Notes under the pieces: model-generated
The model's input: only the letters and a program-made list of their open reading frames with translations
What the model was told of the DNA's origin: nothing
Databases searched by the model: none
Source of the DNA: Escherichia phage OLB35
DNA length: 64,000 nt
Strand: one strand, 5' to 3'
Sequence record: MH992122.1
Shown here: piece after piece, positions 28,436 through 38,398 of the stretch
Numbering within the stretch: the stretch's first letter is position 1
Layout of the letters: the number at the start of each line of letters is the position of its first letter
Translations under genes and position numbers: made by a program

Positions 28436-28465
28436 ATAGTATCACACATCCATGTGCTTGTAAAC
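28436..28465 (-). promoter_or_regulatory. Early-type promoter (GTTTAC / TACTAT) at the alt 3-prime end
   Basis: Minus strand GTTTAC, 18-nt spacer, TACTAT, then leader CAACAACATGAGGAAAACGTT-ATG. Confidence 0.55.
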
Positions 28466-30552
28466 TATCCTTGAACAAATTTAAATGGAACCGATTCCAA
28501 ATCCATTAAAGATGCTAACAGTTTCAATCCTTTAGGAGCACTAGTTTTTTCTACAAATGTGGAGAACGATACCGGCTCATCTGATTCGATTTCACCAGTC
28601 ATAGCAACCACCTCGCCTGTTTCCATGAGAACATCGCCATCGTAAATGACTGCTTCATCCAACTGGTCCGAGGACATGACTTCAGCTTGAATAAATTTAA
28701 GGTTGGATTCTAAACCTGCACCGGTGTCAGATGACGCATCTGTAATTTTATTTATCTGCAAGAGAATGCCTCTAGGCAAAATAATTTCTTGCTCATTAGG
28801 GTGATTACTCAACTGTCCTGGATAAATCACGTTAACTTTATGAGCGCCATCAATAGCCCATCCAACGTTAACACGGATTTGTTCTGGTGCATGCATAGCT
28901 GTTCTTACTTGACTAGGAGAAATAGTAACACCTTCGTCATTATTGTCAATGCTAAGCTCTTTGCGAACTTCTTCAGGAGCAAGTCCAAGGGCAACGTTCT
29001 CTTTAAACCCGCCGAAAATAATAGGAGCTAGTGAAGTAGAAACATAGTTTCTGAAGTAGAATACCTTATTTTTAACCATTGCTTCGTAAATAGGCATTCT
29101 GATAGACTGAGCTCTATACAACGTTAGTCCTTCAGGTAAACGGTCTCCATTTAAAAACGCCGAATCAAGACCATCAATAGCGCGTTTAACTTCATCTTCA
29201 TCTGCAACATCATAAAAATCCGGTTTATAACGTCCTAACAACATATTATTGATATCGGTATACGCAGAAGAGGCATATTCACGAATAGCTCGTTTTTCAG
29301 CAACAGAGTATTGTTTAGGGTCACGATTCATTGTTATATTAAAGGTGCCTCTAGCCGATTCTCGTGCATAAGTATACATCACATTAGACAAGAACGCTGA
29401 TTTACGTTGTTTCCAAGTTTTTTCAGATACTTCAGCTAAAACGTCGTCAGCCAGTTGGAAATTATCTCGTCTAAAATCTTCAAACCATTCGTCTCTAATA
29501 GAGTCTGCAATTTCGTTTGCAGCTTCAACAAAAGCAGCTAATGCTTTAACAGATGTTGTTTTTTCAGTTTTAATTTTCTTAGCAAACTTTTCTAAAGTCG
29601 GCTTAATAACACTACCATAAGAAACTTCATCAGCAAATCTAAAGGATTCATCAATACGATTATAAATCTTATTTTCGATATCAGCAACTAAAGTGCCTTT
29701 TGCTGTAGACGATGCTTGGGCTAGTACGATTTCATATGCTTCAGGAAGTAATTCAGCTGTAGCTGGGCCACTAACTTCTTTAGCAGAATTTTCGTATTTC
29801 TGGAATAGCTCACCTTCTTGGCGGTCAGCTTCTAAAGATTGACTTGCTGCAATAGCGCGACGAGAAATTTTAGTACGAGCAATAACAGGCTTATCTTTAC
29901 GTTTTTCTTCTACAGCAGCAATAGAACCAGCGATAGCCGTTTCTTTGGTGACTTTTTCGCCAGTCTTTTTACTCACATAAACTTCACCAACATCAGAATC
30001 TACTTTCGTGTACAACTCTGTGTTAATGTTAGGGATGCCTTTAATATCTTCAATGTTGGCATTTTTACGAACCATCATCACATATGTGTGTTTACCTGTG
30101 AATTGATACATTGCAGACAATACTTTAAAACGACCACCGGTTTTAGTAGAAACTAAACGAGCAAGAAGAGTTTGAAGTTGTTGTCCACGTCCTTTCAATT
30201 TCTTGGTAGGGAATCGGAACAAAACTGCATCCATACGAAGAGCTTTAACCTGTTCATACACTGTATTGAAAATGGTGTTGATTGCATCAATAGGAGCAGG
30301 ACCAAGACCATTTTTCAATTCAGCGAGATTACCCTTTTCAGAAAGACTCATAATAACGACATGAGCGTATTTGTCACCAAGTTTAACTTGTTTTACAGCA
30401 TCGCCTTCGGAAAGGTAAGAGAATAAACGAACTACGATGTTTGTATCGATATCACCAATTTTCCAGACTTGTGGAACTTTGGCTTTAGGGTTCAAATTGA
30501 CGACAGGAAGACTGCCTTCAGATTCAAACACTTCATTTAATTGTTCAGACAT
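28465..30552 (-). CDS. alt: Alt ADP-ribosyltransferase (head-packaged)
   Basis: 695 aa (T4 Alt 682); position between 54 and DNA ligase. Confidence 0.9.
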   Translation of the reverse strand: MSEQLNEVFESEGSLPVVNLNPKAKVPQVWKIGDIDTNIVVRLFSYLSEGDAVKQVKLGDKYAHVVIMSLSEKGNLAELKNGLGPAPIDAINTIFNTVYEQVKALRMDAVLFRFPTKKLKGRGQQLQTLLARLVSTKTGGRFKVLSAMYQFTGKHTYVMMVRKNANIEDIKGIPNINTELYTKVDSDVGEVYVSKKTGEKVTKETAIAGSIAAVEEKRKDKPVIARTKISRRAIAASQSLEADRQEGELFQKYENSAKEVSGPATAELLPEAYEIVLAQASSTAKGTLVADIENKIYNRIDESFRFADEVSYGSVIKPTLEKFAKKIKTEKTTSVKALAAFVEAANEIADSIRDEWFEDFRRDNFQLADDVLAEVSEKTWKQRKSAFLSNVMYTYARESARGTFNITMNRDPKQYSVAEKRAIREYASSAYTDINNMLLGRYKPDFYDVADEDEVKRAIDGLDSAFLNGDRLPEGLTLYRAQSIRMPIYEAMVKNKVFYFRNYVSTSLAPIIFGGFKENVALGLAPEEVRKELSIDNNDEGVTISPSQVRTAMHAPEQIRVNVGWAIDGAHKVNVIYPGQLSNHPNEQEIILPRGILLQINKITDASSDTGAGLESNLKFIQAEVMSSDQLDEAVIYDGDVLMETGEVVAMTGEIESDEPVSFSTFVEKTSAPKGLKLLASLMDLESVPFKFVQG

Positions 30553-30592
30553 AGTGTTTTCCTTTTAGTAATAATTTATATTTATGCCAAAA

Positions 30593-30608
30593 AGAGCCCG
30601 AAGGCTCT
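30593..30608 (-). terminator. Terminator hairpin AGAGCC-UUCG-GGCUCU upstream of alt
   Basis: On the minus strand followed by UUUUUGG. Confidence 0.6.
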
Positions 30609-30796
30609 TAATCCACAATCGGAAGCAAAGTACGATAAACTTCAAAATTAGGGCCTTTTTCGTACTTATCAAAATTGTCCATAAAAATATTATAGGAATC
30701 GTTATTAGGAAAATCTAATACAATTTGGGAACAAGAGGTGGAAACATCACCACCATCTTTATTAGCGACAACTACTGTTTCTAAATAAGCTTTCAT
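30608..30796 (-). CDS. Hypothetical small protein between ligase and alt
   Basis: Start placed at the Met whose ATG overlaps the ligase stop (TAATG); the 69-aa alternative starts at 30817. Confidence 0.5.
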   Translation of the reverse strand: MKAYLETVVVANKDGGDVSTSCSQIVLDFPNNDSYNIFMDNFDKYEKGPNFEVYRTLLPIVD

Positions 30797-32289
30797 TATA
30801 AACCTGTCTGGGACCAAGGTCCAAATACGTCTTCAAATGAATCCGCTTCTGTTTTATCAAAACGGAACCCTTTAATAATTGGAAGGAAAATACCTACAGT
30901 ACCTTCACGGCCTTTAGAATGAACCCAACCATTACATTCGCAATCAGCAATACGTCCAATCAATTTACCTTCACGAGCTTCAGCCATTAATCGTTCACGG
31001 TCTAAATCATGACGCTCATCTAAAGGAATAAGAACCTTTACACCGTCAACTGTTTTATGAGTTGTATCTTTAAACCCTGAACCACAATCGGTTGTAATAC
31101 GACGACAACGTGATACAAGTTCGACACCACCTAATTTGTTAGGGTCTTTAGAGTGTTCATAGTATCCTACAACTTCTAAAGCGATATCAATAACTTCTTT
31201 AAATTTAATTAGGTTCTTAGAGCGTTTGTTTTCCCAATATGAATCACGGTTTTTAAGGATAATACCTTCAAGACCTTGGTCAACATATTTTTTATAAACC
31301 ACTTTAGCTTCGTCAAGATTACGAACTAACTGATTTTCAATTGGCTCAATTCGCTTAAAGCCTTCAGCCATATTTTCAAGAGCAGCAAAACGAACATCGT
31401 ATTTCTGACCTTTAATTTTGCCATCAGAATAGACTTCATCTAAAGGAACATAGTCCCAGGCTTGAAGAACCATACCTTCAGCTTCTTTAGGAGAAATAGT
31501 CCCTTGAAGAGATTTATTTGCTAAACCGTTTGAAGTGCTACGGTCTGCAACTTGTACTTCTTCGGATTCTTCATTATCGCCAAATAAGAACGACAGGTCA
31601 TTTCCTGAGCTCACAGCCTTTTTAATATCAAATGAATGATAAACTAATTCGCCGTCGATTAAAACCCCATTAGGGTGTCTTTCACGGGCTTCTTTAGTCA
31701 TTTCCATTAGTTCATCTGCTAATAGGGTAAGACCATGGTATTCGTTACCGGCACGAGAAAAGAATTGAACACCGTCATCACGAACTTCAGCGAAACAACG
31801 AGCACCATCTGCTTTTAATTGAGCAAATGCAGGCCATTTAATATTTTTAGTAATCAATTTCTCGTCATATGCAGATGCTAACATCTGCGGTTGCAATTGA
31901 ATAAGTCCAGGCCATACCTTATTCGCGATAGACACTGAAGCACCTACTTCAAGGTCTCGCATCATTACACGGCGTAGTACTTCAACATCATCAGGTTTAC
32001 CGTCGGCGATATAACCCATGAGCTCTTTAATTGCTGCATTACCAGTGAGTTTACGAGTGGCCAATGTGAACTCAATAAAATCCAACATGTCATCTAATTC
32101 AAGAAGACCATACGCTTGAGACCTTTCACCTGGTCCTGGCCATTTCTTAATATAATACTGGATACCACGTGCATATGTTAAACGATACACACGTTCAAGT
32201 AATTTGTTGTCCTTATTTTTCTTAAGGATTTCCTGTTTTGTTTTAGTAGAACCGATCGCAGCTATTTGGTTTAAAATATCTAAAATCAT
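30796..32289 (-). CDS. 30: ATP-dependent DNA ligase gp30
   Basis: 497 aa; adenylation motif AQLKADGARC (KxDG); T4 ligase is 487 aa. Confidence 0.95.
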   Translation of the reverse strand: MILDILNQIAAIGSTKTKQEILKKNKDNKLLERVYRLTYARGIQYYIKKWPGPGERSQAYGLLELDDMLDFIEFTLATRKLTGNAAIKELMGYIADGKPDDVEVLRRVMMRDLEVGASVSIANKVWPGLIQLQPQMLASAYDEKLITKNIKWPAFAQLKADGARCFAEVRDDGVQFFSRAGNEYHGLTLLADELMEMTKEARERHPNGVLIDGELVYHSFDIKKAVSSGNDLSFLFGDNEESEEVQVADRSTSNGLANKSLQGTISPKEAEGMVLQAWDYVPLDEVYSDGKIKGQKYDVRFAALENMAEGFKRIEPIENQLVRNLDEAKVVYKKYVDQGLEGIILKNRDSYWENKRSKNLIKFKEVIDIALEVVGYYEHSKDPNKLGGVELVSRCRRITTDCGSGFKDTTHKTVDGVKVLIPLDERHDLDRERLMAEAREGKLIGRIADCECNGWVHSKGREGTVGIFLPIIKGFRFDKTEADSFEDVFGPWSQTGL

Positions 32290-32555
32290 TTGATATCCTC
32301 GATTTTGGTTACGGTTCTATTATAAGCCACTTCATCTAGAAGCGATTTCAGCGTTTTCTGATAAGTGGTAATCCGTTTACCGAGTCCTTCAACATAGTAT
32401 TCTGAAATGTAGATGAACCCTTGTTCAACGCACTCTTTAAATATTTCTGCGTCTTTTACTGAACGAAACAACGGCCAGTCTCGAAAGAACATGTTAACAT
32501 GACCGTAGTCGCGTGTGGTGTTTTTGCCATCTGTAATATCATGAACTACAAACAT
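32286..32555 (-). CDS. Hypothetical protein (30.1-like position)
   Basis: 89-aa ORF with ATGA-type overlap with ligase. Confidence 0.6.
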   Translation of the reverse strand: MFVVHDITDGKNTTRDYGHVNMFFRDWPLFRSVKDAEIFKECVEQGFIYISEYYVEGLGKRITTYQKTLKSLLDEVAYNRTVTKIEDIK

Positions 32556-32564
32556 AATTAACCC

Positions 32565-33389
32565 TTAACAATTTTTAGACCAAGTCCATTTAGACGAATC
32601 TAAAGGAAAGTTTTGAATCGTCCACCATGGCTGCATATCGGTTGGTCCTGGGGTTCGCCAGGTATATGGAGTACGTGTTGTCGAGGGGCCACCAATTTGA
32701 TTAGGCCATGCGCCTGGACTTGTTGCACCAGATTCTTTAAGCAAATCGGCCAATCGTTTTAAAAGGTCTTCACGATCTGAATTTGAATTATGCTCGGGTG
32801 GAACCAATCGAGATTCAATATCATCCCACGTGTGTACACGTTGTGCAGTGCGAGGAATATCATCACGTTCACCACGAGCCAACCAATAAATCGGTACATT
32901 AAGAATTTCTGCCGCATGGTCACAGTGATGAGCTAAATCGTCAACGTAACAAATCACGTTATATTTTGTTTTAGCTAGTTCGAATAATTGTTCCTTTGAA
33001 GAATCATGACCACACATCATTACTTCAGAGAAAGCGCCTGGGAACAAAGCGTTCAAATTAAATTGTCTATTCAATCGAGCATCAATTGAATCACCTAGCG
33101 CCGTCACGGCTACAAAATTATAGTCTTCTTTTAGTTTATTGATAACTCGAAGAGCATCCGAATAAGGCGCTAAGTAACGAATAAAATCAGAGCGATTATA
33201 TTTTTCTATTAATTGTTTACCGAGGTTATCGTCGGTATTGAATAGTTTACCAGGAGAAATAAATTTTTCGTCCTGAATCATTTTTAAAATATGTTCTAAT
33301 GGAAGATTATATTTTTGGGCAAAATAAGGAAGTCCGGATTGCCAACTTAAACATACACCATCAATATCAGTCAAAATAGTAGGCTTCAT
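32565..33389 (-). CDS. HAD-superfamily hydrolase-like protein (30.2-like position)
   Basis: N-terminal DIDGV (HAD motif I, DxDG) and later YVDD; Trp/Pro-rich C-terminal tail. Confidence 0.7.
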   Translation of the reverse strand: MKPTILTDIDGVCLSWQSGLPYFAQKYNLPLEHILKMIQDEKFISPGKLFNTDDNLGKQLIEKYNRSDFIRYLAPYSDALRVINKLKEDYNFVAVTALGDSIDARLNRQFNLNALFPGAFSEVMMCGHDSSKEQLFELAKTKYNVICYVDDLAHHCDHAAEILNVPIYWLARGERDDIPRTAQRVHTWDDIESRLVPPEHNSNSDREDLLKRLADLLKESGATSPGAWPNQIGGPSTTRTPYTWRTPGPTDMQPWWTIQNFPLDSSKWTWSKNC

Positions 33390-33853
33390 AAAGAGTCTCT
33401 TAATAGGTTTAACACATCAATAAATTCAGCTTCAGTTAGTATTGTATCATCTTTTGTTAGGTGGCTAGCCATGCTGTGCTTCAAAATTTTTCCTTTAGAG
33501 GCTTGTAAGGCATCACGAAACCCCTTATTTTGGATCGCGGCTTCAAAATATGCATTTGTGTATAATTCTTTCCACGCTTCGGAGTATCTTGAAAACGGAA
33601 CTCCTAACCAGAAGAGAGTTCCATGGTCCTGGGCTCTTGCATAAGACCTTCCAGCTTGCTGTGCAGCCAATCCAGACAACCCAAATATACGTCTTTGTTG
33701 TTCAACATTTTTCACCTTACATCCTTGGAGAAATCCTTCAAGACCTCCGAATTGAATACCATCCATAACAAAAGGCCATTGAGCAAAGTTACTTAATGCA
33801 CATGACGGCCACTTGAAATTACTTCTTATTTCTAATTCAGACATCTTTAACAC
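33386..33853 (-). CDS. NADAR / YbiA-like domain protein (30.3-like position)
   Basis: LSNFAQWPFVMDGIQFGGLEGFLQGCKV aligns with the YbiA core FSNFAAWP..DG...SEHYFQAQKF recalled from E. coli; ATGA overlap with the downstream HAD-like gene. Confidence 0.65.
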   Translation of the reverse strand: MLKMSELEIRSNFKWPSCALSNFAQWPFVMDGIQFGGLEGFLQGCKVKNVEQQRRIFGLSGLAAQQAGRSYARAQDHGTLFWLGVPFSRYSEAWKELYTNAYFEAAIQNKGFRDALQASKGKILKHSMASHLTKDDTILTEAEFIDVLNLLRDSL

Positions 33854-34049
33854 TTATAATTTCAACATCAGCCCAATGGCCGTAACTAGGCAGACGGTCT
33901 TCAATAGATAAACCACCGTCATTTTTAAGCATTTTAATTGTCTTGATAAATGGTTCATCCTGTGGATGAATAGGCGAGCAGTCAGTTACACGATAAGTAA
34001 CTTCGATCATTTCTGTACCAAACAATTTCTGGATTAGTTTTTTAAGCAT
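33837..34049 (-). CDS. Hypothetical protein
   Basis: 70-aa ORF in the early 30.x cluster. Confidence 0.5.
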   Translation of the reverse strand: MLKKLIQKLFGTEMIEVTYRVTDCSPIHPQDEPFIKTIKMLKNDGGLSIEDRLPSYGHWADVEIISVKDV

Positions 34050-34053
34050 TTTA

Positions 34054-34341
34054 TTAGAACCTCATCTGAAAGCCATGTGATTTAACATTACCGCCGCCAA
34101 TATCAGAAATGTTAATTTCACTTGCAATCGAAGGATCGATGTCAATTTCACGATTAAGTTTAGTGATAGCTAAAGTATCATGCCCATTTACTGTACGAAA
34201 CTCCAAAGGACATACTACGTTGACATAGTGTTTAATTGACTCGCTAGTAGGTTGCAAATGGACCGGAAGGTCTTTAGGTGCTTTAGAGAAAACAACTTCA
34301 CAAAAGTTTTTGCGGGTATCAAAATAAGTGGTCATAAACAT
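34054..34341 (-). CDS. Hypothetical protein
   Basis: 95-aa ORF in the early 30.x cluster. Confidence 0.5.
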   Translation of the reverse strand: MFMTTYFDTRKNFCEVVFSKAPKDLPVHLQPTSESIKHYVNVVCPLEFRTVNGHDTLAITKLNREIDIDPSIASEINISDIGGGNVKSHGFQMRF

Positions 34342-34357
34342 AATATTTTCCTCAATT

Positions 34358-34373
34358 GGGAGCCGAAGCTCCC
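34358..34373 (-). terminator. Hairpin GGGAGC-UUCG-GCUCCC within the early 30.x cluster
   Basis: 6-bp stem with tetraloop in an intergenic gap. Confidence 0.5.
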
Positions 34374-34380
34374 AGTTAAA

Positions 34381-34746
34381 TTAGATATCGAATTCATTAA
34401 GAACTACATCAAAGATTGCTTCGAGATGTTCAGGTTTAGCTCGGTTACTCAGGATATGACGAATCCAAGTTTTAACCAAAAGTTTACGATTAACACCGTT
34501 CCAGCAAGGATGAGTACCTAAATCACGCTGACGGAAATCATCATCTAATGCAATTTTAAAATTTGAACCTTCCATCGTGATTGAAACCGTGATGCCATTT
34601 TCAAATCGCATATAAACGTAATTAGGAGTCATGCACTGTTCGATTTCACAAACTGTACCGTTTTTGTGTTTCCATAAGCAAATAACTTCAGAAGAACCAG
34701 CGATACCGTTAGAAACATATTTACGTTCGAAGTTGATGTAGTTCAT
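34381..34746 (-). CDS. Hypothetical protein
   Basis: 121-aa ORF preceded by the early promoter motif at 34788-34816. Confidence 0.55.
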   Translation of the reverse strand: MNYINFERKYVSNGIAGSSEVICLWKHKNGTVCEIEQCMTPNYVYMRFENGITVSITMEGSNFKIALDDDFRQRDLGTHPCWNGVNRKLLVKTWIRHILSNRAKPEHLEAIFDVVLNEFDI

Positions 34747-34787
34747 TTTATTCTCCAGATGTTTAAGTTGTTTGTTAGTACAGGTCT

Positions 34788-34816
34788 ATAATAACATAAC
34801 CTGTACCAAAGTAAAC
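34788..34816 (-). promoter_or_regulatory. Early-type promoter (GTTTAC / TATTAT)
   Basis: GTTTAC, 17-nt spacer, TATTAT upstream of the ORF starting at 34746. Confidence 0.55.
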
Positions 34817-34820
34817 TGTT

Positions 34821-35189
34821 TTATGCAACTTTAATCCAATTGTCTAAATTTAAAACACCTTTGGCTTTCATTTTTTCGATCAGGTTATCTGCTGTAATGC
34901 GTCCATTTTGATACCATGTAACATCTTCAGAGTAACCAGTTTCTTCGTCAACATATGTTTCTGAACGAATTTTACCTGTAATAATAGTTTTTAATTCGTA
35001 TGTGTCACCTGTGAAAAAGTTTGCTAACACAATTTTCCAAGAGAAATCATTTGAAGGACCTTCAGGAGTTGTACAACCTACGATCTCAAATTGCTCTTTG
35101 TATAACATCCACTGGAATTCTTTAATTTCGATAGCTTTATAACCGTCGTGGTCTTTACATTTGATGTATGAGTTCAGGTTGATTTTCAT
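34821..35189 (-). CDS. Hypothetical protein
   Basis: 122-aa ORF preceded by the early promoter motif at 35232-35260. Confidence 0.55.
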   Translation of the reverse strand: MKINLNSYIKCKDHDGYKAIEIKEFQWMLYKEQFEIVGCTTPEGPSNDFSWKIVLANFFTGDTYELKTIITGKIRSETYVDEETGYSEDVTWYQNGRITADNLIEKMKAKGVLNLDNWIKVA

Positions 35190-35231
35190 TTTGTTCTCCA
35201 GTTTGTTTTATTGATTAGGTGGTACAAGTCT

Positions 35232-35260
35232 ATAGTAACACATCCTACAGGAGAGTAAAC
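35232..35260 (-). promoter_or_regulatory. Early-type promoter (GTTTAC / TACTAT)
   Basis: GTTTAC, 17-nt spacer, TACTAT upstream of the ORF starting at 35189. Confidence 0.55.
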
Positions 35261-35296
35261 ATTTTTTTAAACTTTTTCTGCCCTAAACGCACAAAA

Positions 35297-35314
35297 GGGA
35301 GACCGAAGTCTCCC
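35297..35314 (-). terminator. Terminator GGGAGAC-UUCG-GUCUCCC after the small basic ORF
   Basis: Minus-strand hairpin followed by UUUUGUGCGUUU. Confidence 0.7.
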
Positions 35315-35319
35315 TAAAA

Positions 35320-35496
35320 TTATGCAACAACCTTTCCAAAACGAGAAGCATCATCTCGAAGAACTGCACGTGCTCTGCGCATGATCTTCTCAACTGTTTG
35401 ATTAATACGAGAGTTCGACCCACGCTTGTATCCAGCGCGTTTAGAATCACCGACTTTCTTTTCAACTGCTTTCTTTGCTTTAGTTTGTTTTGCCAT
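35320..35496 (-). CDS. Hypothetical small basic protein (58 aa; below the 60-aa cut-off of the ORF track)
   Basis: Hand-translated: MAKQTKAKKAVEKKVGDSKRAGYKRGSNSRINQTVEKIMRRARAVLRDDASRFGKVVA; AAAGAG SD-like upstream; followed by terminator hairpin 35297-35314. Confidence 0.45.
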   Translation of the reverse strand: MAKQTKAKKAVEKKVGDSKRAGYKRGSNSRINQTVEKIMRRARAVLRDDASRFGKVVA

Positions 35497-35713
35497 TATA
35501 AATTCTCTTTAAATGAAAATGCAGGACTTATTGACATTGCCTGCTCAAGCCCTCAAGGGGAACATAGGTTTTGGATATTTAACGACAGGATAACCATAAA
35601 CCCGTCATCATACCATATAGCTCTTATCTGTTGGGGGTAGCATGCACTTACCGCTATAAGAACAACATTCAAGAGGTACACCGTAAAACTGCCGGGGTCT
35701 TATTCTAAAATAT

Positions 35714-35731
35714 AATGATTCGCAAATCATT
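35714..35731 (-). terminator. Terminator hairpin AAUGAUU-UGCG-AAUCAUU plus U-tract after rIII
   Basis: 7-bp stem followed on the minus strand by AUAUUUUAG. Confidence 0.6.
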
Positions 35732-35763
35732 AATCAGACAATTCGACGGCTCCTCGATTTAAC

Positions 35764-36012
35764 TTACTTCAGGGTAATAACAAAATGACGTACTGCTTTA
35801 CGAGCTGCTGAAGCCAAAGGCTTAGCATATTTCAGTTCATCTTTTGCTTCCAGTTCAGCAGCCAGAGTAGCCTGAGCAGGATTCAGATGTTTGAAATACT
35901 GTAAGATTTCCAGTGCTTCGGCTTCAACATCAATTGAAGCGCCGTAGTTTTCGTGACCGTTATTCCATGCGTTGCGTTGCAGATCAAGAGCGTGTTGTAG
36001 TTGTTTAATCAT
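35764..36012 (-). CDS. rIII: rIII lysis-inhibition accessory protein
   Basis: 82 aa as in T4; adjacent to gene 31. Confidence 0.85.
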   Translation of the reverse strand: MIKQLQHALDLQRNAWNNGHENYGASIDVEAEALEILQYFKHLNPAQATLAAELEAKDELKYAKPLASAARKAVRHFVITLK

Positions 36013-36136
36013 TTTAAATTCTCAATTCGAGATAATATTTAGTAGCCACGTTCGTCTGAATTTCACCTTCTTTCGACAAGTCTCTCAGTTGTAGGCTACC
36101 GCTTAGAAGAGTGTTCTCTTCATATAGTTATTTATA

Positions 36137-36469
36137 TCACTTATAAAGACACGGAATAGCTTTATAGTGGCATGTTACGAATTTCTGTTTAATTTCTTTA
36201 GGTTGTTTAAGTCCCAAAGCCACAAATGGATGTGGAACATTTCGAATTTGTCCAACTGGTAGTGGAGTCAAATCACCGACTTCAACAAAACCTTCAGGAA
36301 CATCAGGACCTACAGAATGAACTACACATAGTTCAGGAACTTCACCTTGAACACGTTTACCAATCACAAGTCCTGATTCGGTAACTTCTTCATCACCTGC
36401 TTGAGCGGGTTCAGAAACCAGAATGACATATTCACCAACAGCACGAATTGGGAGTTGTACTTCAGACAT
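36137..36469 (-). CDS. 31: Co-chaperonin gp31 (GroES analogue)
   Basis: 110 aa (T4 111); position between rIII and cd. Confidence 0.9.
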
Positions 36470-36526
36470 CTTATTTCCTTGTTGTTTGACGATAGATTAA
36501 TAATACCATACTATTCGTAAAGCATA

Positions 36527-36835
36527 TTACATAAGAAGCAAACGTTCGACCGGAGTACCATCAACCGAAATTACTTTATCAAGGCGGAAAGAACGCCACT
36601 GACCTAACTTGGTATCGAATGCTCGAACTGATTCACGAGGTTCAGAACGAACTTCTGTTGATGGGTTACTATTTTCATATTTGACTTCAAGTTCATCGCG
36701 CGAAGCAAACATCGTACGAACATCACCGTTAGCCTTTTCAAATACAACACAATGAACGCCTACAGACAGAATAGTTTTAATACGTTCACGAAGAACCATA
36801 GTTTCTTGTTCAGTTAAAATCATATTATTCACCAC
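36527..36835 (-). CDS. Hypothetical protein (31.1-like position)
   Basis: 102-aa ORF between cd and 31. Confidence 0.6.
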   Translation of the reverse strand: MVNNMILTEQETMVLRERIKTILSVGVHCVVFEKANGDVRTMFASRDELEVKYENSNPSTEVRSEPRESVRAFDTKLGQWRSFRLDKVISVDGTPVERLLLM

Positions 36836-37406
36836 AAAAGTTTCGGATTTGTTCCCAATTCAGAGAACGAAGATTATTACGAGAGTACTGAATTACTTCA
36901 ATACCAGCTTGTTTTAGAATATCTGCCCAATTTTCAGGAGATCGGTCGTATAATTCTGCGTATACGACCTTTTTAATACCTGACTGCGTAATAGCTTTAG
37001 TACAATCAGGACATGGAGAAAGCGTCGTATATAACGTAGCACCTTCAATAGAATTACCTTTACGAGCGGCAAACAAAATTGCATTCAATTCTGCATGGAT
37101 TTCATTATTAGCAGACCATGCACTATGAGCAGCTCGATGTTCTTTGGCTAAAACAAAATTATCTACCCGTCCAAATGCTGTAGTGCCTTCTTTATGTCCA
37201 GCAACGATGACCGGACTTGGTTTATTCTTCAACCAACCATTTTCAGATGCATGTTCGCAACAGTTAACGCCACCTGCAGGTGAACCGTTATATCCAGTAG
37301 AGATAATGCGTCCATCTTTTTCAATGACGGCACCAACTTTCCATGAACAACATTTTGATTCTTGAGAAATCAGATATGCAATCTGAAGGTATGTGCTAGC
37401 TTTCAT
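36825..37406 (-). CDS. cd: dCMP deaminase
   Basis: 193 aa as in T4; zinc-binding deaminase motifs HAE and PCPDC. Confidence 0.95.
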   Translation of the reverse strand: MKASTYLQIAYLISQESKCCSWKVGAVIEKDGRIISTGYNGSPAGGVNCCEHASENGWLKNKPSPVIVAGHKEGTTAFGRVDNFVLAKEHRAAHSAWSANNEIHAELNAILFAARKGNSIEGATLYTTLSPCPDCTKAITQSGIKKVVYAELYDRSPENWADILKQAGIEVIQYSRNNLRSLNWEQIRNFCGE

Positions 37407-38398
37407 TATTGAACCTTATTAATATAAGTTAACAGCTCTTTAGTTTGTTCCCAACTGATGCACGCATCGGTAACGGAAACGCCATAGGACATATTATTAG
37501 AAATTTTTTGATTTCCTTCATGTAGGAACGATTCTATCATAATTCCTTTGACCAAATCATTAGCTGCTAAATTTTTACCAATACCAATTTGATTGCTATA
37601 ATGCCCATCAGCGTTTGCATGGCTACAGTCAACCATTACATAATGATTCAGACCTACTGCCCTTGCTTTGTTAGAAGCTTCTTGAATATCAGAAGAATGA
37701 TAGTTCGGGCCGTTGGTCCCGCCACGCAATACGATATGCGTATTCTGATTACCTTCAGCTTCAACAATGCCTACAGTACCATCGACGTCCATACCCATAT
37801 ACCGATGAGGCCAGGCGGCACTATACATCGCGTCTGTAGCTACTTTAATAGAACCATTGGTTGCGTTCTTGAAGCCTACGCACATCGGTAGACCCGAAGC
37901 AATTTCACGATGTGTCTGACTTTCAGTCGTACGGGCGCCAATAGCAACCCATGAGAAAATACCAGAAAGATACTTAATCGTGAATGGGTCTAATACTTCA
38001 GTTGCTAATGGAAGTCCCATACGTAGAAGTTTACGACACAATGTTCGTGCAACTATAAGACCGTGGTTCATATCAAAACTTCCGTCAAGATATGGATCAT
38101 TTACAAGACCTTTCCAACCTACGGTAGTTCGAGGCTTTTCAAAATAAACGCGCATCACTAACAGAACATTAGGAAGACGAGTTTGAAGTTCAGCCAGACG
38201 TTTGCCGTATTCAACCGCAGCAATAGGGTCATGAATTGAACAAGGACCTACAACAATAAGTTTGCGTGGGTCTTCACCGTTCATAATCGAATTAACTTGT
38301 TCGCGATGAGAAGCCACTTGTGATGCGTAAGCTTCCGACAAAGGAATAATCTCAGCCAGTTCTTTTGGAGAAATAAGTTTTCCGACGACAGGTAACAT
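37406..38398 (-). CDS. 3-deoxy-7-phosphoheptulonate (DAHP) synthase, class I (AroG/AroF-like)
   Basis: 330 aa; long collinear blocks match E. coli AroG as recalled: LIVVGPCSIHDP, VMRVYFEKPRTTVGWKGL, AIGARTTESQTHRE, VGFKN.T.G.IKVA, ILRGG..PNY, and the C-terminal HEGNQ...SITDACI.WE.T; stop overlaps the cd start (TAATG). Confidence 0.9.
   Translation of the reverse strand: MLPVVGKLISPKELAEIIPLSEAYASQVASHREQVNSIMNGEDPRKLIVVGPCSIHDPIAAVEYGKRLAELQTRLPNVLLVMRVYFEKPRTTVGWKGLVNDPYLDGSFDMNHGLIVARTLCRKLLRMGLPLATEVLDPFTIKYLSGIFSWVAIGARTTESQTHREIASGLPMCVGFKNATNGSIKVATDAMYSAAWPHRYMGMDVDGTVGIVEAEGNQNTHIVLRGGTNGPNYHSSDIQEASNKARAVGLNHYVMVDCSHANADGHYSNQIGIGKNLAANDLVKGIMIESFLHEGNQKISNNMSYGVSVTDACISWEQTKELLTYINKVQ

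What the first reader, a model, noticed from the sequence alone, without database searches (positions are those of the whole stretch)
32565..33853. Translationally coupled NADAR-like / HAD-phosphatase-like gene pair downstream of DNA ligase
The 155-aa ORF (33386-33853) contains LSNFAQWPFVMDGIQFGGLEGFLQGCKV, which aligns with the YbiA/NADAR core (FSNFAAWP..DG...EHYFQAQKF). Its stop overlaps (ATGA) the start of a 274-aa ORF with HAD motif I (DIDGV) and a Trp/Pro-rich tail. NADAR domains are linked to ADP-ribose / NAD-derived metabolite processing and to reversing ADP-ribosylation of guanine. A coupled NADAR + phosphatase cassette in an early operon, about 3 kb from the Alt ADP-ribosyltransferase, could be an ADP-ribose-processing or counter-defence module; that is inference. 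T4 has 30.2/30.3 ORFs in this position, so the genes may be known as hypotheticals without an assigned function.
Basis: partly seen in the sequence, partly recalled or inferred. Interest (0 to 1): 0.5.

Follow-up and report, generated by a model that had tools for sequence, protein, structure and literature searches.

The report
Known anti-DarTG gene adfN plus phosphatase
These are the T4-type genes 30.3 and 30.2 of an RB69-like phage: 30.3 is an intact copy of AdfN, an enzyme already shown to strip toxic ADP-ribose from phage DNA, and 30.2 is a phosphatase of unknown role that published data show AdfN does not need.

Summary
Two minus-strand ORFs overlap by ATGA in an RB69-like T-even phage (Mosigvirus), downstream of 30.4 and upstream of 30.1 and DNA ligase.

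The upstream ORF is gene 30.3. Its true start is the ATG at 33844, giving 152 aa. It is 96% identical to T4 gp30.3, which is AdfN. [quoted passage not shown] The window copy keeps E36, K43, H123 and the C-terminal helix, and it lacks the frameshift that inactivates RB69's own allele.

The downstream ORF is gene 30.2. It has a confident capped HAD phosphatase fold with all four catalytic motifs. It is closest to 5'(3')-deoxyribonucleotidase-like enzymes and ends in a disordered Trp/Pro-rich tail.

The "coupled cassette" idea is not supported:
- In published T4 transposon data, 30.2 insertions are neutral on DarTG1 hosts, while 30.3 insertions are lost.
- Across phages, 30.2 stays next to DNA ligase and 30.3 is often about 55 kb away.
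- 4-8-nt overlaps join several neighbouring gene pairs here.

Verdict: 30.3 is already known. 30.2 has a known fold and an unknown substrate. Interest is low.

The parts
33386..33844 (-). Gene 30.3 = adfN. It encodes a 152-aa NADAR-family DNA ADP-ribosylglycohydrolase and is an intact allele. Catalytic codons: E36 at 33737-33739, K43 at 33716-33718, subfamily His H123 at 33476-33478.
   Evidence: Pfam PF08010 at E=4e-69. 96% identical to T4 gp30.3 over 152 aa. E36, K43 and H123 are invariant in 48 homologues. AlphaFold2 pLDDT 92.9, and the top PDB matches are YbiA, PnNADAR and G. lovleyi NADAR. Function was shown for the T4 protein in PMC11825919 and PMC11125620.
33845..33853 (-). In-frame GTG extension reported by the mechanical ORF list. 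It is probably not translated and is not part of the gene.
   Evidence: The annotated homologues in phage 348Ecol098PP and T4 are 459 nt (152 codons plus stop) and begin at the ATG. Residue numbering from the ATG reproduces the published E36 and K43.
33434..33435 (-). Site where RB69 carries an extra T (gene position 411). That T frameshifts its adfN and removes the last 15 residues. The window lacks it, so the C-terminal helix EAEFIDVLNLLRDSL is kept.
   Evidence: DNA alignment of the window against RB69, protein alignment, and the published description of the RB69 defect.
33386..33389 (-). ATGA overlap: the TGA stop of 30.3 and the ATG start of 30.2. Translational coupling is possible.
   Evidence: Read directly from the sequence. 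T4 has the same 4-nt overlap.
33837..33844 (-). ATGTCTGA overlap: the 30.3 start sits inside the end of 30.4.
32805..33389 (-). Gene 30.2, residues 1-195: a HAD-superfamily phosphatase domain with a helical C1 cap (about residues 12-86). Catalytic motifs: D8-x-D10-G-V, T96, K132, D150-D151.
32565..32804 (-). Gene 30.2, residues 196-274 plus the stop: one predicted helix (203-219) followed by a disordered Trp/Pro-rich tail. The tail varies in length and sequence between phages and is absent from many.
   Evidence: pLDDT below 50 for residues 228-274. The alignment shows a variable or missing tail. T4 and the window diverge here, with about 40% nucleotide identity.
33837..34049 (-). Gene 30.4 (70 aa, function unknown), immediately upstream of and overlapping adfN.
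   Evidence: phrog_2042 and the RB69/T4 annotation. In T4 transposon sequencing it is mildly depleted on DarTG1 (log2 -1.79, q=0.014).
32286..32555 (-). Gene 30.1 (DUF3045), between 30.2 and the ligase.
   Evidence: PF11243 at E=1e-26.
30796..32289 (-). Gene 30, ATP-dependent DNA ligase. It is the conserved neighbour of 30.2.
   Evidence: PF01068. Ligase lies within 4 kb of 30.2 in 72 of 78 related loci.

Best explanation
The two ORFs are genes 30.3 and 30.2 of an RB69-like T-even phage. They are adjacent members of a long, tightly packed run of co-directional genes, not a two-part machine.

**Gene 30.3 is adfN.** Its product is a stand-alone NADAR enzyme. It hydrolyses the N-glycosidic bond between ADP-ribose and guanine in DNA. 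This removes the replication-blocking marks that the host toxin DarT1 puts on phage DNA and lets the phage grow on hosts carrying DarTG1. The activity was shown experimentally for the 96%-identical T4 protein and is inferred here by orthology. All catalytic residues and the C-terminal helix are intact. This phage should therefore resist DarTG1, unlike RB69, whose allele is frameshifted.

**Gene 30.2 encodes a Mg-dependent HAD phosphatase.** It has a closed-cap (C1) design, which is typical of enzymes acting on small phosphorylated metabolites. Its nearest relatives are 5'(3')-deoxyribonucleotidase-like enzymes. The most likely activity is dephosphorylation of a (deoxy)nucleoside monophosphate or a similar small phospho-sugar. 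This is an inference; the substrate is unknown. The gene is dispensable in the laboratory and is not needed for AdfN to defeat DarTG1. Its disordered aromatic/proline-rich tail may tether it to a partner, but that is speculation.
For: **Identity of the locus**
- 98.9% DNA identity to Mosigvirus phages. RB69 and T4 have the same gene order.

**AdfN**
- PF08010 at 231 bits and 96% identity to T4 gp30.3.
- E36, K43 and H123 are invariant.
- NADAR fold with pLDDT 92.9; the three top PDB matches are NADARs. The family profile matches YbiA at E=9e-4.
- No RB69-type frameshift.
- Published genetics and biochemistry of T4 AdfN, plus an independent transposon confirmation.

**gp30.2**
- Motifs D8xD10, T96, K132 and D150-D151 sit at the ends of strands 4-7, 91-96 and 145-150, as expected for HAD enzymes.
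- NT5C is the commonest Pfam match among distant relatives (16 of 63, best E=2e-8). The best HAD match in the PDB sequence search is dNT-1 (2jao), though at E=0.63 and behind an unrelated amidase at E=0.28. Viral structural neighbours are labelled 5' nucleotidase.

**Independence of the two genes**
- T4 30.2 insertions are neutral on DarTG1 (log2 -0.12, p=0.61, 71 sites), against -7.25 for 30.3.
- Ligase lies within 4 kb of 30.2 in 72 of 78 loci, but 30.3 in only 37 of 78.
- Of the 60 loci seeded on 30.3 that lack 30.2, only 1 has ligase nearby.
- Ten long contigs, nine of them with database-genome-style IMG/VR identifiers, carry both genes about 50-60 kb apart.
Against: - No assay was done on this phage's proteins; AdfN function is transferred from T4 by 96% identity.
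- The T4 transposon data cover one host and one DarTG1 system and come from a preprint.
- AdfN-T4 needs an unidentified T-even factor for full activity. A redundant or subtle contribution from gp30.2 cannot be strictly excluded.
- Both genes occur in almost the same set of about 1,450-1,500 phage genomes, and where they are adjacent the order is always 30.3 then 30.2 on the same strand.
Confidence: 0.85

Rival explanations
1. Functional cassette. gp30.2 works with AdfN. It might dephosphorylate or clear the released ADP-ribose or its breakdown products, or it might be the unidentified T-even factor that AdfN-T4 needs for full activity.
For: - The ATGA overlap is conserved in T4.
- Where the genes are adjacent, the order is always 30.3 then 30.2 on the same strand (37 of 37 loci).
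- AdfN-T4 rescues RB69, which has an intact 30.2, but does not rescue uninfected E. coli and only weakly rescues T5 and Bas25, so a T-even-specific helper is postulated.
- Phosphatases are often coupled to ADP-ribose-removing enzymes in bacterial systems (PMC9503650).
Against: - T4 transposon sequencing shows 30.2 insertions are neutral on DarTG1 (log2 -0.12, p=0.61, 71 TA sites), while 30.3 insertions are lost.
- In parts 11-12 of that table the only other significant gene is 30.4.
- The genes are within 4 kb in only 37 of 78 and 20 of 80 related loci, and about 50-60 kb apart on ten long contigs.
- 30.2 tracks DNA ligase, not 30.3.
- Overlapping stops and starts are the local norm.
- Purified AdfN-T4 is active alone in vitro.
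Confidence: 0.07
2. gp30.2 is a nucleic-acid end-processing enzyme, a DNA or RNA 3'-phosphatase that prepares nicks for the neighbouring DNA ligase, rather than a small-molecule phosphatase.
For: - DNA ligase lies within 4 kb in 72 of 78 related loci.
- HAD phosphatase domains of polynucleotide kinase/phosphatases appear among the viral structural matches at E around 1e-6.
Against: - The model has a roughly 75-residue helical cap inserted right after motif I. That design encloses small substrates, whereas PNKP-type HAD phosphatases lack such a cap (general knowledge of HAD classification).
- T-even phages already encode PseT for 3'-phosphate removal.
- Gene order in T4-like replication regions is broadly conserved, so proximity to ligase is weak evidence.
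Confidence: 0.06
3. gp30.3 is a housekeeping YbiA-type N-glycosidase acting on riboflavin-pathway intermediates or soluble ADP-ribose derivatives, not on DNA.
For: - Its best solved-structure match is E. coli YbiA.
- A 2022 comparative study favoured soluble ADP-ribose derivatives as substrates for phage NADARs.
Against: - It carries the phage-subfamily His in place of the YbiA Glu in the last strand.
- The T4 protein removes guanine-linked ADP-ribose from DNA in vitro and is necessary and sufficient for DarTG1 resistance.
Confidence: 0.02

Closest known systems
T4 AdfN (gp30.3), anti-DarT factor NADAR (Johannesman et al. 2025, PMC11825919; Cihlova et al. 2024, PMC11125620)
   Same: 152 aa with 96% identity. 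It has the same E36, K43 and H123, the same C-terminal helix, the same position between 30.4 and 30.2, and the same ATGA overlap with 30.2.
   Different: Six substitutions. It sits in a Mosigvirus backbone, whose type phage RB69 carries a frameshifted, inactive allele. No experiment has been done on this allele.
DarG1, the NADAR antitoxin of DarT1-NADAR toxin-antitoxin systems (Geobacter lovleyi NADAR, PDB 8bat; Schuller et al. 2023)
   Same: NADAR fold (Foldseek hit 3). It has the same chemistry, removing ADP-ribose from guanine in DNA.
   Different: The phage protein is an orphan with no adjacent DarT. It lacks the N-terminal extension and has His where DarG1-type NADARs have Asp in the last strand. 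The T4 protein does not protect uninfected E. coli from DarT1.
E. coli YbiA (PDB 2b3w), a riboflavin-intermediate N-glycosidase
   Same: Best fold and profile match (TM 0.67, E=3.6e-5; profile E=9e-4).
   Different: 18% identity. It belongs to a different subfamily (Glu against His in the last strand) and has a housekeeping role.
5'(3')-deoxyribonucleotidases of the NT5C family (human cdN 6g2n, mouse dNT-1 2jao, S. epidermidis 3bwv)
   Different: The window protein itself does not match PF06941. Identity is 14-18%. gp30.2 has an extra 80-residue helix plus disordered tail. No substrate is known.
T4 gp30.2 (hypothetical protein T4p204)
   Same: Orthologue with 68% identity overall. It is nearly identical over the first ~120 residues and has the same position and overlap. 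It is non-essential in T4.
   Different: The C-terminal tails are essentially unrelated in sequence.

Membership tests
Phage gp30.3 / AdfN subfamily of the NADAR superfamily | Match to Pfam PF08010 (Phage_30_3) above the gathering score | tested here: met
   231.1 bits against a cut-off of 36, covering the whole profile.
Phage gp30.3 / AdfN subfamily of the NADAR superfamily | NADAR (YbiA) fold | tested here: met
   AlphaFold2 pLDDT 92.9. The three best PDB matches are the NADAR structures 2b3w, 8bau and 8bat, and nothing else scores below E=1.
Phage gp30.3 / AdfN subfamily of the NADAR superfamily | Catalytic Glu and Lys (E36 and K43 in T4 numbering) | tested here: met
   Both are present and invariant in 48 homologues. 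Their roles are given in PMC11825919.
Phage gp30.3 / AdfN subfamily of the NADAR superfamily | Histidine in the last beta-strand, where YbiA has Glu and DarG1-type NADARs have Asp | tested here: met
   H123 is invariant and lies in predicted strand 120-123. The criterion comes from PMC11125620.
Phage gp30.3 / AdfN subfamily of the NADAR superfamily | Intact C-terminal helix, which is needed for full activity and lost in RB69 | tested here: met
   Residues 138-152 are present and predicted helical, and there is no T insertion.
Phage gp30.3 / AdfN subfamily of the NADAR superfamily | Removes ADP-ribose from guanine in DNA and confers DarTG1 resistance | not testable with these tools
   Shown for the T4 protein only. 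Inferred here from 96% identity.
DarT-NADAR (DarTG1) toxin-antitoxin module | NADAR gene adjacent to a DarT ADP-ribosyltransferase toxin gene | tested here: not met
   The neighbours are 30.4 and 30.2. The nearest ADP-ribosyltransferase is Alt, a protein-modifying enzyme (PF03496) 2-3 kb away. The gene is an orphan antitoxin-like gene.
HAD (haloacid dehalogenase-like) phosphatase superfamily | Rossmann-like HAD core fold | tested here: met
HAD (haloacid dehalogenase-like) phosphatase superfamily | Four catalytic motifs: DxDx(T/V), S/T, K, and DD or DxxxD | tested here: met
   D8-I-D10-G-V12, T96, K132 and D150-D151 sit at the expected strand ends. D8, D10 and K132 are invariant even among relatives at 20-30% identity.
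HAD (haloacid dehalogenase-like) phosphatase superfamily | Match to a curated HAD sequence model at its threshold | tested here: not met
   HAD_2 scores 15.5 bits against 23.8, and TIGR01428 scores 12.7 against 125.4. Membership therefore rests on fold and motifs, not on curated sequence models.
NT5C 5'(3')-deoxyribonucleotidase family (PF06941) | Sequence match to PF06941 | tested here: inconclusive
   The window protein has no hit. Seven of 47 close relatives and 16 of 63 distant relatives match, with a best E=2.2e-8. The PDB profile search finds dNT-1 at only E=0.63.
NT5C 5'(3')-deoxyribonucleotidase family (PF06941) | Dephosphorylates deoxyribonucleoside monophosphates | not testable with these tools
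   No biochemical data exist for any gp30.2 homologue. No paper in the library contains 'gp30.2'.
   The genes are within 4 kb in 37 of 78 loci seeded on 30.2 and 20 of 80 seeded on 30.3. They are about 50-60 kb apart on ten long contigs.
   From published data read here: on DarTG1, 30.3 shows log2 -7.25 (q=0) and 30.2 shows log2 -0.12 (p=0.61).

The most novel reading that the evidence does not exclude
gp30.2 may be a conditionally important enzyme with a role nobody has tested. It is conserved in about 1,450 T4-like phage genomes, is almost always beside DNA ligase and Alt, and has no assigned function. It could destroy a phosphorylated nucleotide-derived immune signal or toxic metabolite. 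It could reshape dNMP pools against a nucleotide-targeting defence absent from E. coli K-12. Or its variable Trp/Pro tail could tether it to the replication or repair machinery. A subtle, redundant helper role for AdfN is also not strictly excluded.
Probability: 0.12. Interest if true: 0.55.

Novelty: already known. Interest (0 to 1): 0.15.

Why it matters
There is little new for the field. AdfN and its mechanism were published in 2024-2025. Some GenBank records already label this gene pair 'ybiA-like protein' and 'HAD-like protein'.

There are two practical points:
- This RB69-like phage carries the functional adfN allele, so it is predicted to resist DarTG1, unlike RB69 itself. That matters when predicting host range or choosing therapeutic phages.
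- gp30.2 remains one of the widely conserved T4-family enzymes with a clear catalytic fold and no known substrate. The comparative data here point investigators away from AdfN and towards the DNA-ligase and nucleotide-metabolism neighbourhood.

Tried and rejected
- **gp30.2 as the missing T-even factor for AdfN.** This was my working idea after reading PMC11825919. I rejected it after finding the HIDEN-SEQ DarTG1 table, where 30.2 is neutral, and after the synteny counts.
- **Recent horizontal transfer of adfN from T4.** The trigger was 96% amino-acid identity against 68% for gp30.2. The sliding nucleotide comparison shows about 85-92% across adfN, the start of 30.2, and also 30.6-30.7. That indicates strong conservation, not a sharp recombination tract, so I left it as a passing note.
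- **Promoter and terminator scan of 30500-36600.** It gave 16 promoter-like sites against 17.9 expected and 3 terminator-like sites against 4.4 expected. This is uninformative, so 'early operon' was neither confirmed nor refuted here.
- **Domain fusions of gp30.2 relatives** (P0261, P0303, P0250, P0206 and others). Their extra regions have no Pfam match, so they give no functional clue.
- **NCBIfam scan.** Nothing useful.
- **Foldseek against afdb50.** The library was unavailable, so I used BFVD instead.
- **Part 17 of the HIDEN-SEQ supplement.** I read it for other 30.2 phenotypes, but it did not contain the 30.2 row. Phenotypes of 30.2 in the other conditions were not checked.
- **Literature search for 'gp30.2'.** It returned nothing. 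The NARP3 paper is unrelated.
Full report
**1. What is in the sequence**

On the minus strand there is a run of co-directional genes:

| Coordinates | Gene | Notes |
|---|---|---|
| 33837-34049 | 30.4 | 70 aa |
| 33386-33853 | 30.3 | 155 aa from a GTG in the mechanical ORF list |
| 32565-33389 | 30.2 | 274 aa |
| 32286-32555 | 30.1 | DUF3045 |
| 30796-32289 | 30, DNA ligase | PF01068 |
| 28465-30552 | alt | PF03496 |

- The region is 98.9% identical in DNA to Escherichia phage CCU7 and about 95% identical to RB69, so the window comes from a Mosigvirus, an RB69-like T-even phage.
- The RB69 and T4 annotations give the same gene order and names.
- The stop of 30.3 and the start of 30.2 share ATGA at 33386-33389.
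- The true 30.3 start is the ATG at 33844, giving 152 aa beginning MSELEIR. It lies inside the end of 30.4 in the sequence ATGTCTGA. This start matches the annotated homologues and the published residue numbering.
- Such overlaps are the local rule and not a mark of this pair. 30.4/30.3 overlap by 8 nt, 30.3/30.2 by 4 nt and 30.1/ligase by 4 nt.

**2. Gene 30.3 is adfN, which is already characterised**

Evidence from the sequence and the predicted structure:
- The protein matches Pfam PF08010 (Phage_30_3) at 231 bits.
- The AlphaFold2 model has pLDDT 92.9. Its three best PDB matches are the NADAR structures YbiA (2b3w), Phytophthora NADAR with ADP-ribose (8bau) and Geobacter lovleyi NADAR (8bat). 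Nothing else scores below E=1.

Evidence from the literature:
- Iyer et al. 2022 noted NADAR genes expressed with ADP-ribosyltransferases in the early regions of T4-like phages (PMC9503650).
- Cihlova et al. 2024 showed that the phage NADAR gp30.3 hydrolyses guanine-linked ADP-ribose on DNA in vitro. They also showed that phage NADARs carry a His in the last strand where other NADARs have Glu or Asp (PMC11125620).
- Johannesman et al. 2025 renamed T4 gp30.3 as AdfN (PMC11825919). They showed it is necessary and sufficient for resistance of T-even phages to DarTG1 and that E36 and K43 matter. They also showed that RB69 is DarTG1-sensitive because a T insertion at gene position 411 truncates its AdfN by 15 residues.
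- A T4 transposon-sequencing preprint confirmed independently that 30.3 insertions are lost on DarTG1.

The window protein:
- It is 96% identical to T4 AdfN over all 152 residues.
- It keeps E36, K43 and H123, which are invariant in the family.
- It lacks the RB69 insertion. The site lies between window positions 33435 and 33434, so the C-terminal helix is intact.
- This phage is therefore predicted to resist DarTG1. That step is inference from orthology.

**3. Gene 30.2 is a capped HAD phosphatase of unknown substrate**

Sequence models alone are weak. HAD_2 scores E=0.02, below threshold, and NCBIfam gives nothing useful. The structural and motif evidence is strong:
- The AlphaFold2 model, built from 47 homologues, has pLDDT above 90 for residues 1-190.
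- The four HAD motifs are present at the expected strand ends: D8-x-D10-G-V, T96, K132 and D150-D151.
- D8, D10, R108 and K132 stay invariant in relatives at only 20-30% identity.
- The second Asp in motif I marks a phosphatase or phosphomutase, not a dehalogenase. This is general knowledge of the HAD family.
- A helical insert of about 75 residues directly after motif I forms a C1-type cap, which usually encloses small substrates.

Evidence on the subfamily:
- A full HMMER search of 1.84 billion representative proteins finds 1,081 relatives, mostly HAD-only proteins of about 200 aa.
- Among 63 distant relatives, the commonest Pfam match is NT5C, the 5'(3')-deoxyribonucleotidase family (16 members, best E=2e-8).
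- Viral structural neighbours are often labelled 5' nucleotidase.
- My best guess is therefore a (deoxy)nucleotide or similar small phospho-metabolite phosphatase. I hold this at only moderate confidence.

The C-terminal region:
- Residues 203-219 form a predicted helix, and residues 228-274 are disordered with pLDDT below 50.
- The region is rich in Trp and Pro.
- It differs almost completely from the T4 tail and is absent from many homologues.

**4. Do the two genes work together?**

After reading that AdfN-T4 needs an unknown T-even factor for full activity, I took gp30.2 as the obvious candidate. The evidence goes against it.

First, the HIDEN-SEQ supplementary table for control against DarTG1. 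The sheet header was confirmed as Data S6, and the rows were read.

| T4 gene | TA sites | log2 change | Significance |
|---|---|---|---|
| 30.3 | 28 | -7.25 | q=0 |
| 30.2 | 71 | -0.12 | p=0.61 |
| 30.4 | 21 | -1.79 | q=0.014 |

In the parts I read, covering genes from 26 to rnlA in the table's order, the only other significant gene is 30.4, directly upstream. A polar effect on adfN is the simplest reading of that result.

Second, comparative genomics in IMG/VR.

| Loci seeded on | 30.2 nearby | 30.3 nearby | Ligase nearby | Alt nearby |
|---|---|---|---|---|
| 30.2 (78 loci) | n/a | 37 | 72 | 56 |
| 30.3 (80 loci) | 20 | n/a | 19 | 13 |

- 'Nearby' means within 4 kb.
- Where 30.3 is near 30.2, it is always upstream on the same strand.
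- Of the 41 30.2 loci without 30.3 nearby, 36 still have ligase.
- Of the 60 30.3 loci without 30.2 nearby, only 1 has ligase.
- Ten long contigs, nine of them with database-genome-style IMG/VR identifiers, carry both genes about 50-60 kb apart. In one of them, the 167,773-bp contig, 30.2 sits directly upstream of ligase while the AdfN homologue lies elsewhere among small ORFs.
- So 30.2 travels with the ligase region and adfN is the mobile partner.

Both genes occur in almost the same set of phage genomes: 1,444 and 1,510 records with the same host spread. That reflects both being near-core genes of T4-like phages. Purified AdfN is also active alone in vitro.

**5. Comparison with the known, and novelty**

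- 30.3 meets every sequence and fold criterion for the AdfN/gp30.3 NADAR subfamily.
- It is an orphan with no DarT next to it, so it is not a toxin-antitoxin module.
- 30.2 meets the fold and motif criteria for the HAD superfamily but no curated sequence threshold. Its placement near NT5C is suggestive only.
- At least one GenBank record already labels the pair 'ybiA-like protein' and 'HAD-like protein'. Others.2 homologues '5' nucleotidase' or 'haloacid halogenase'.
- The finding is therefore already known for 30.3. For 30.2 the fold is known and the function is open.

**6. Verdict**

- The fold assignments and the anti-DarTG guess are right but already published.
- The cassette idea is not supported.
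- Interest is low (0.15).
- The remaining open question is what gp30.2 does. The data here suggest looking towards nucleotide or DNA metabolism around the ligase, not towards AdfN.

Noticed in passing
window 37406-38398 (-): A 330-aa class I DAHP synthase (PF00793, E=4e-75), the first enzyme of aromatic amino-acid synthesis, lies directly downstream of dCMP deaminase (cd, 36825-37406). RB69 has cd.2/cd.3 at this position instead. Relatives occur in 212 phage records, many of them annotated, so this is a known auxiliary gene of this phage group.
   Followed up: partly
window 33837-34049 (-), gene 30.4: In the published T4 transposon table, insertions in 30.4 are mildly but significantly depleted on DarTG1 (log2 -1.79, q=0.014). 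In the parts read, it is the only gene other than adfN that is. 30.4 overlaps the adfN start by 8 nt, so a polar effect is likely, but 30.4 is a better candidate than 30.2 for an AdfN helper.
   Followed up: partly
window 32200-34750 compared with T4 (L161): Conservation relative to T4 is uneven. adfN, the first ~100 nt of 30.2, and 30.6-30.7 are 81-92% identical in DNA. The ligase is 60-75% identical and the 30.2 tail about 40%. AdfN is 95-99% identical in protein in 510 phage records. This suggests strong purifying selection on adfN across Tequatrovirus and Mosigvirus.
   Followed up: partly
window 34045-34102, between 30.4 and 30.6: T4 has an extra small gene, 30.5, between 30.4 and 30.6. 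The window, like RB69, goes straight from 30.4 to 30.6, and the alignment with T4 breaks down here.
   Followed up: no
L154 4001-4939 and other 30.2 homologues (alignment A2): The C-terminal extensions of gp30.2 homologues range from none to more than 150 residues. Several share a short motif, G-x-G-(I/V)-E-Y-L-x-R-Q-P-T, that the window protein lacks. Its meaning is unknown.
   Followed up: no
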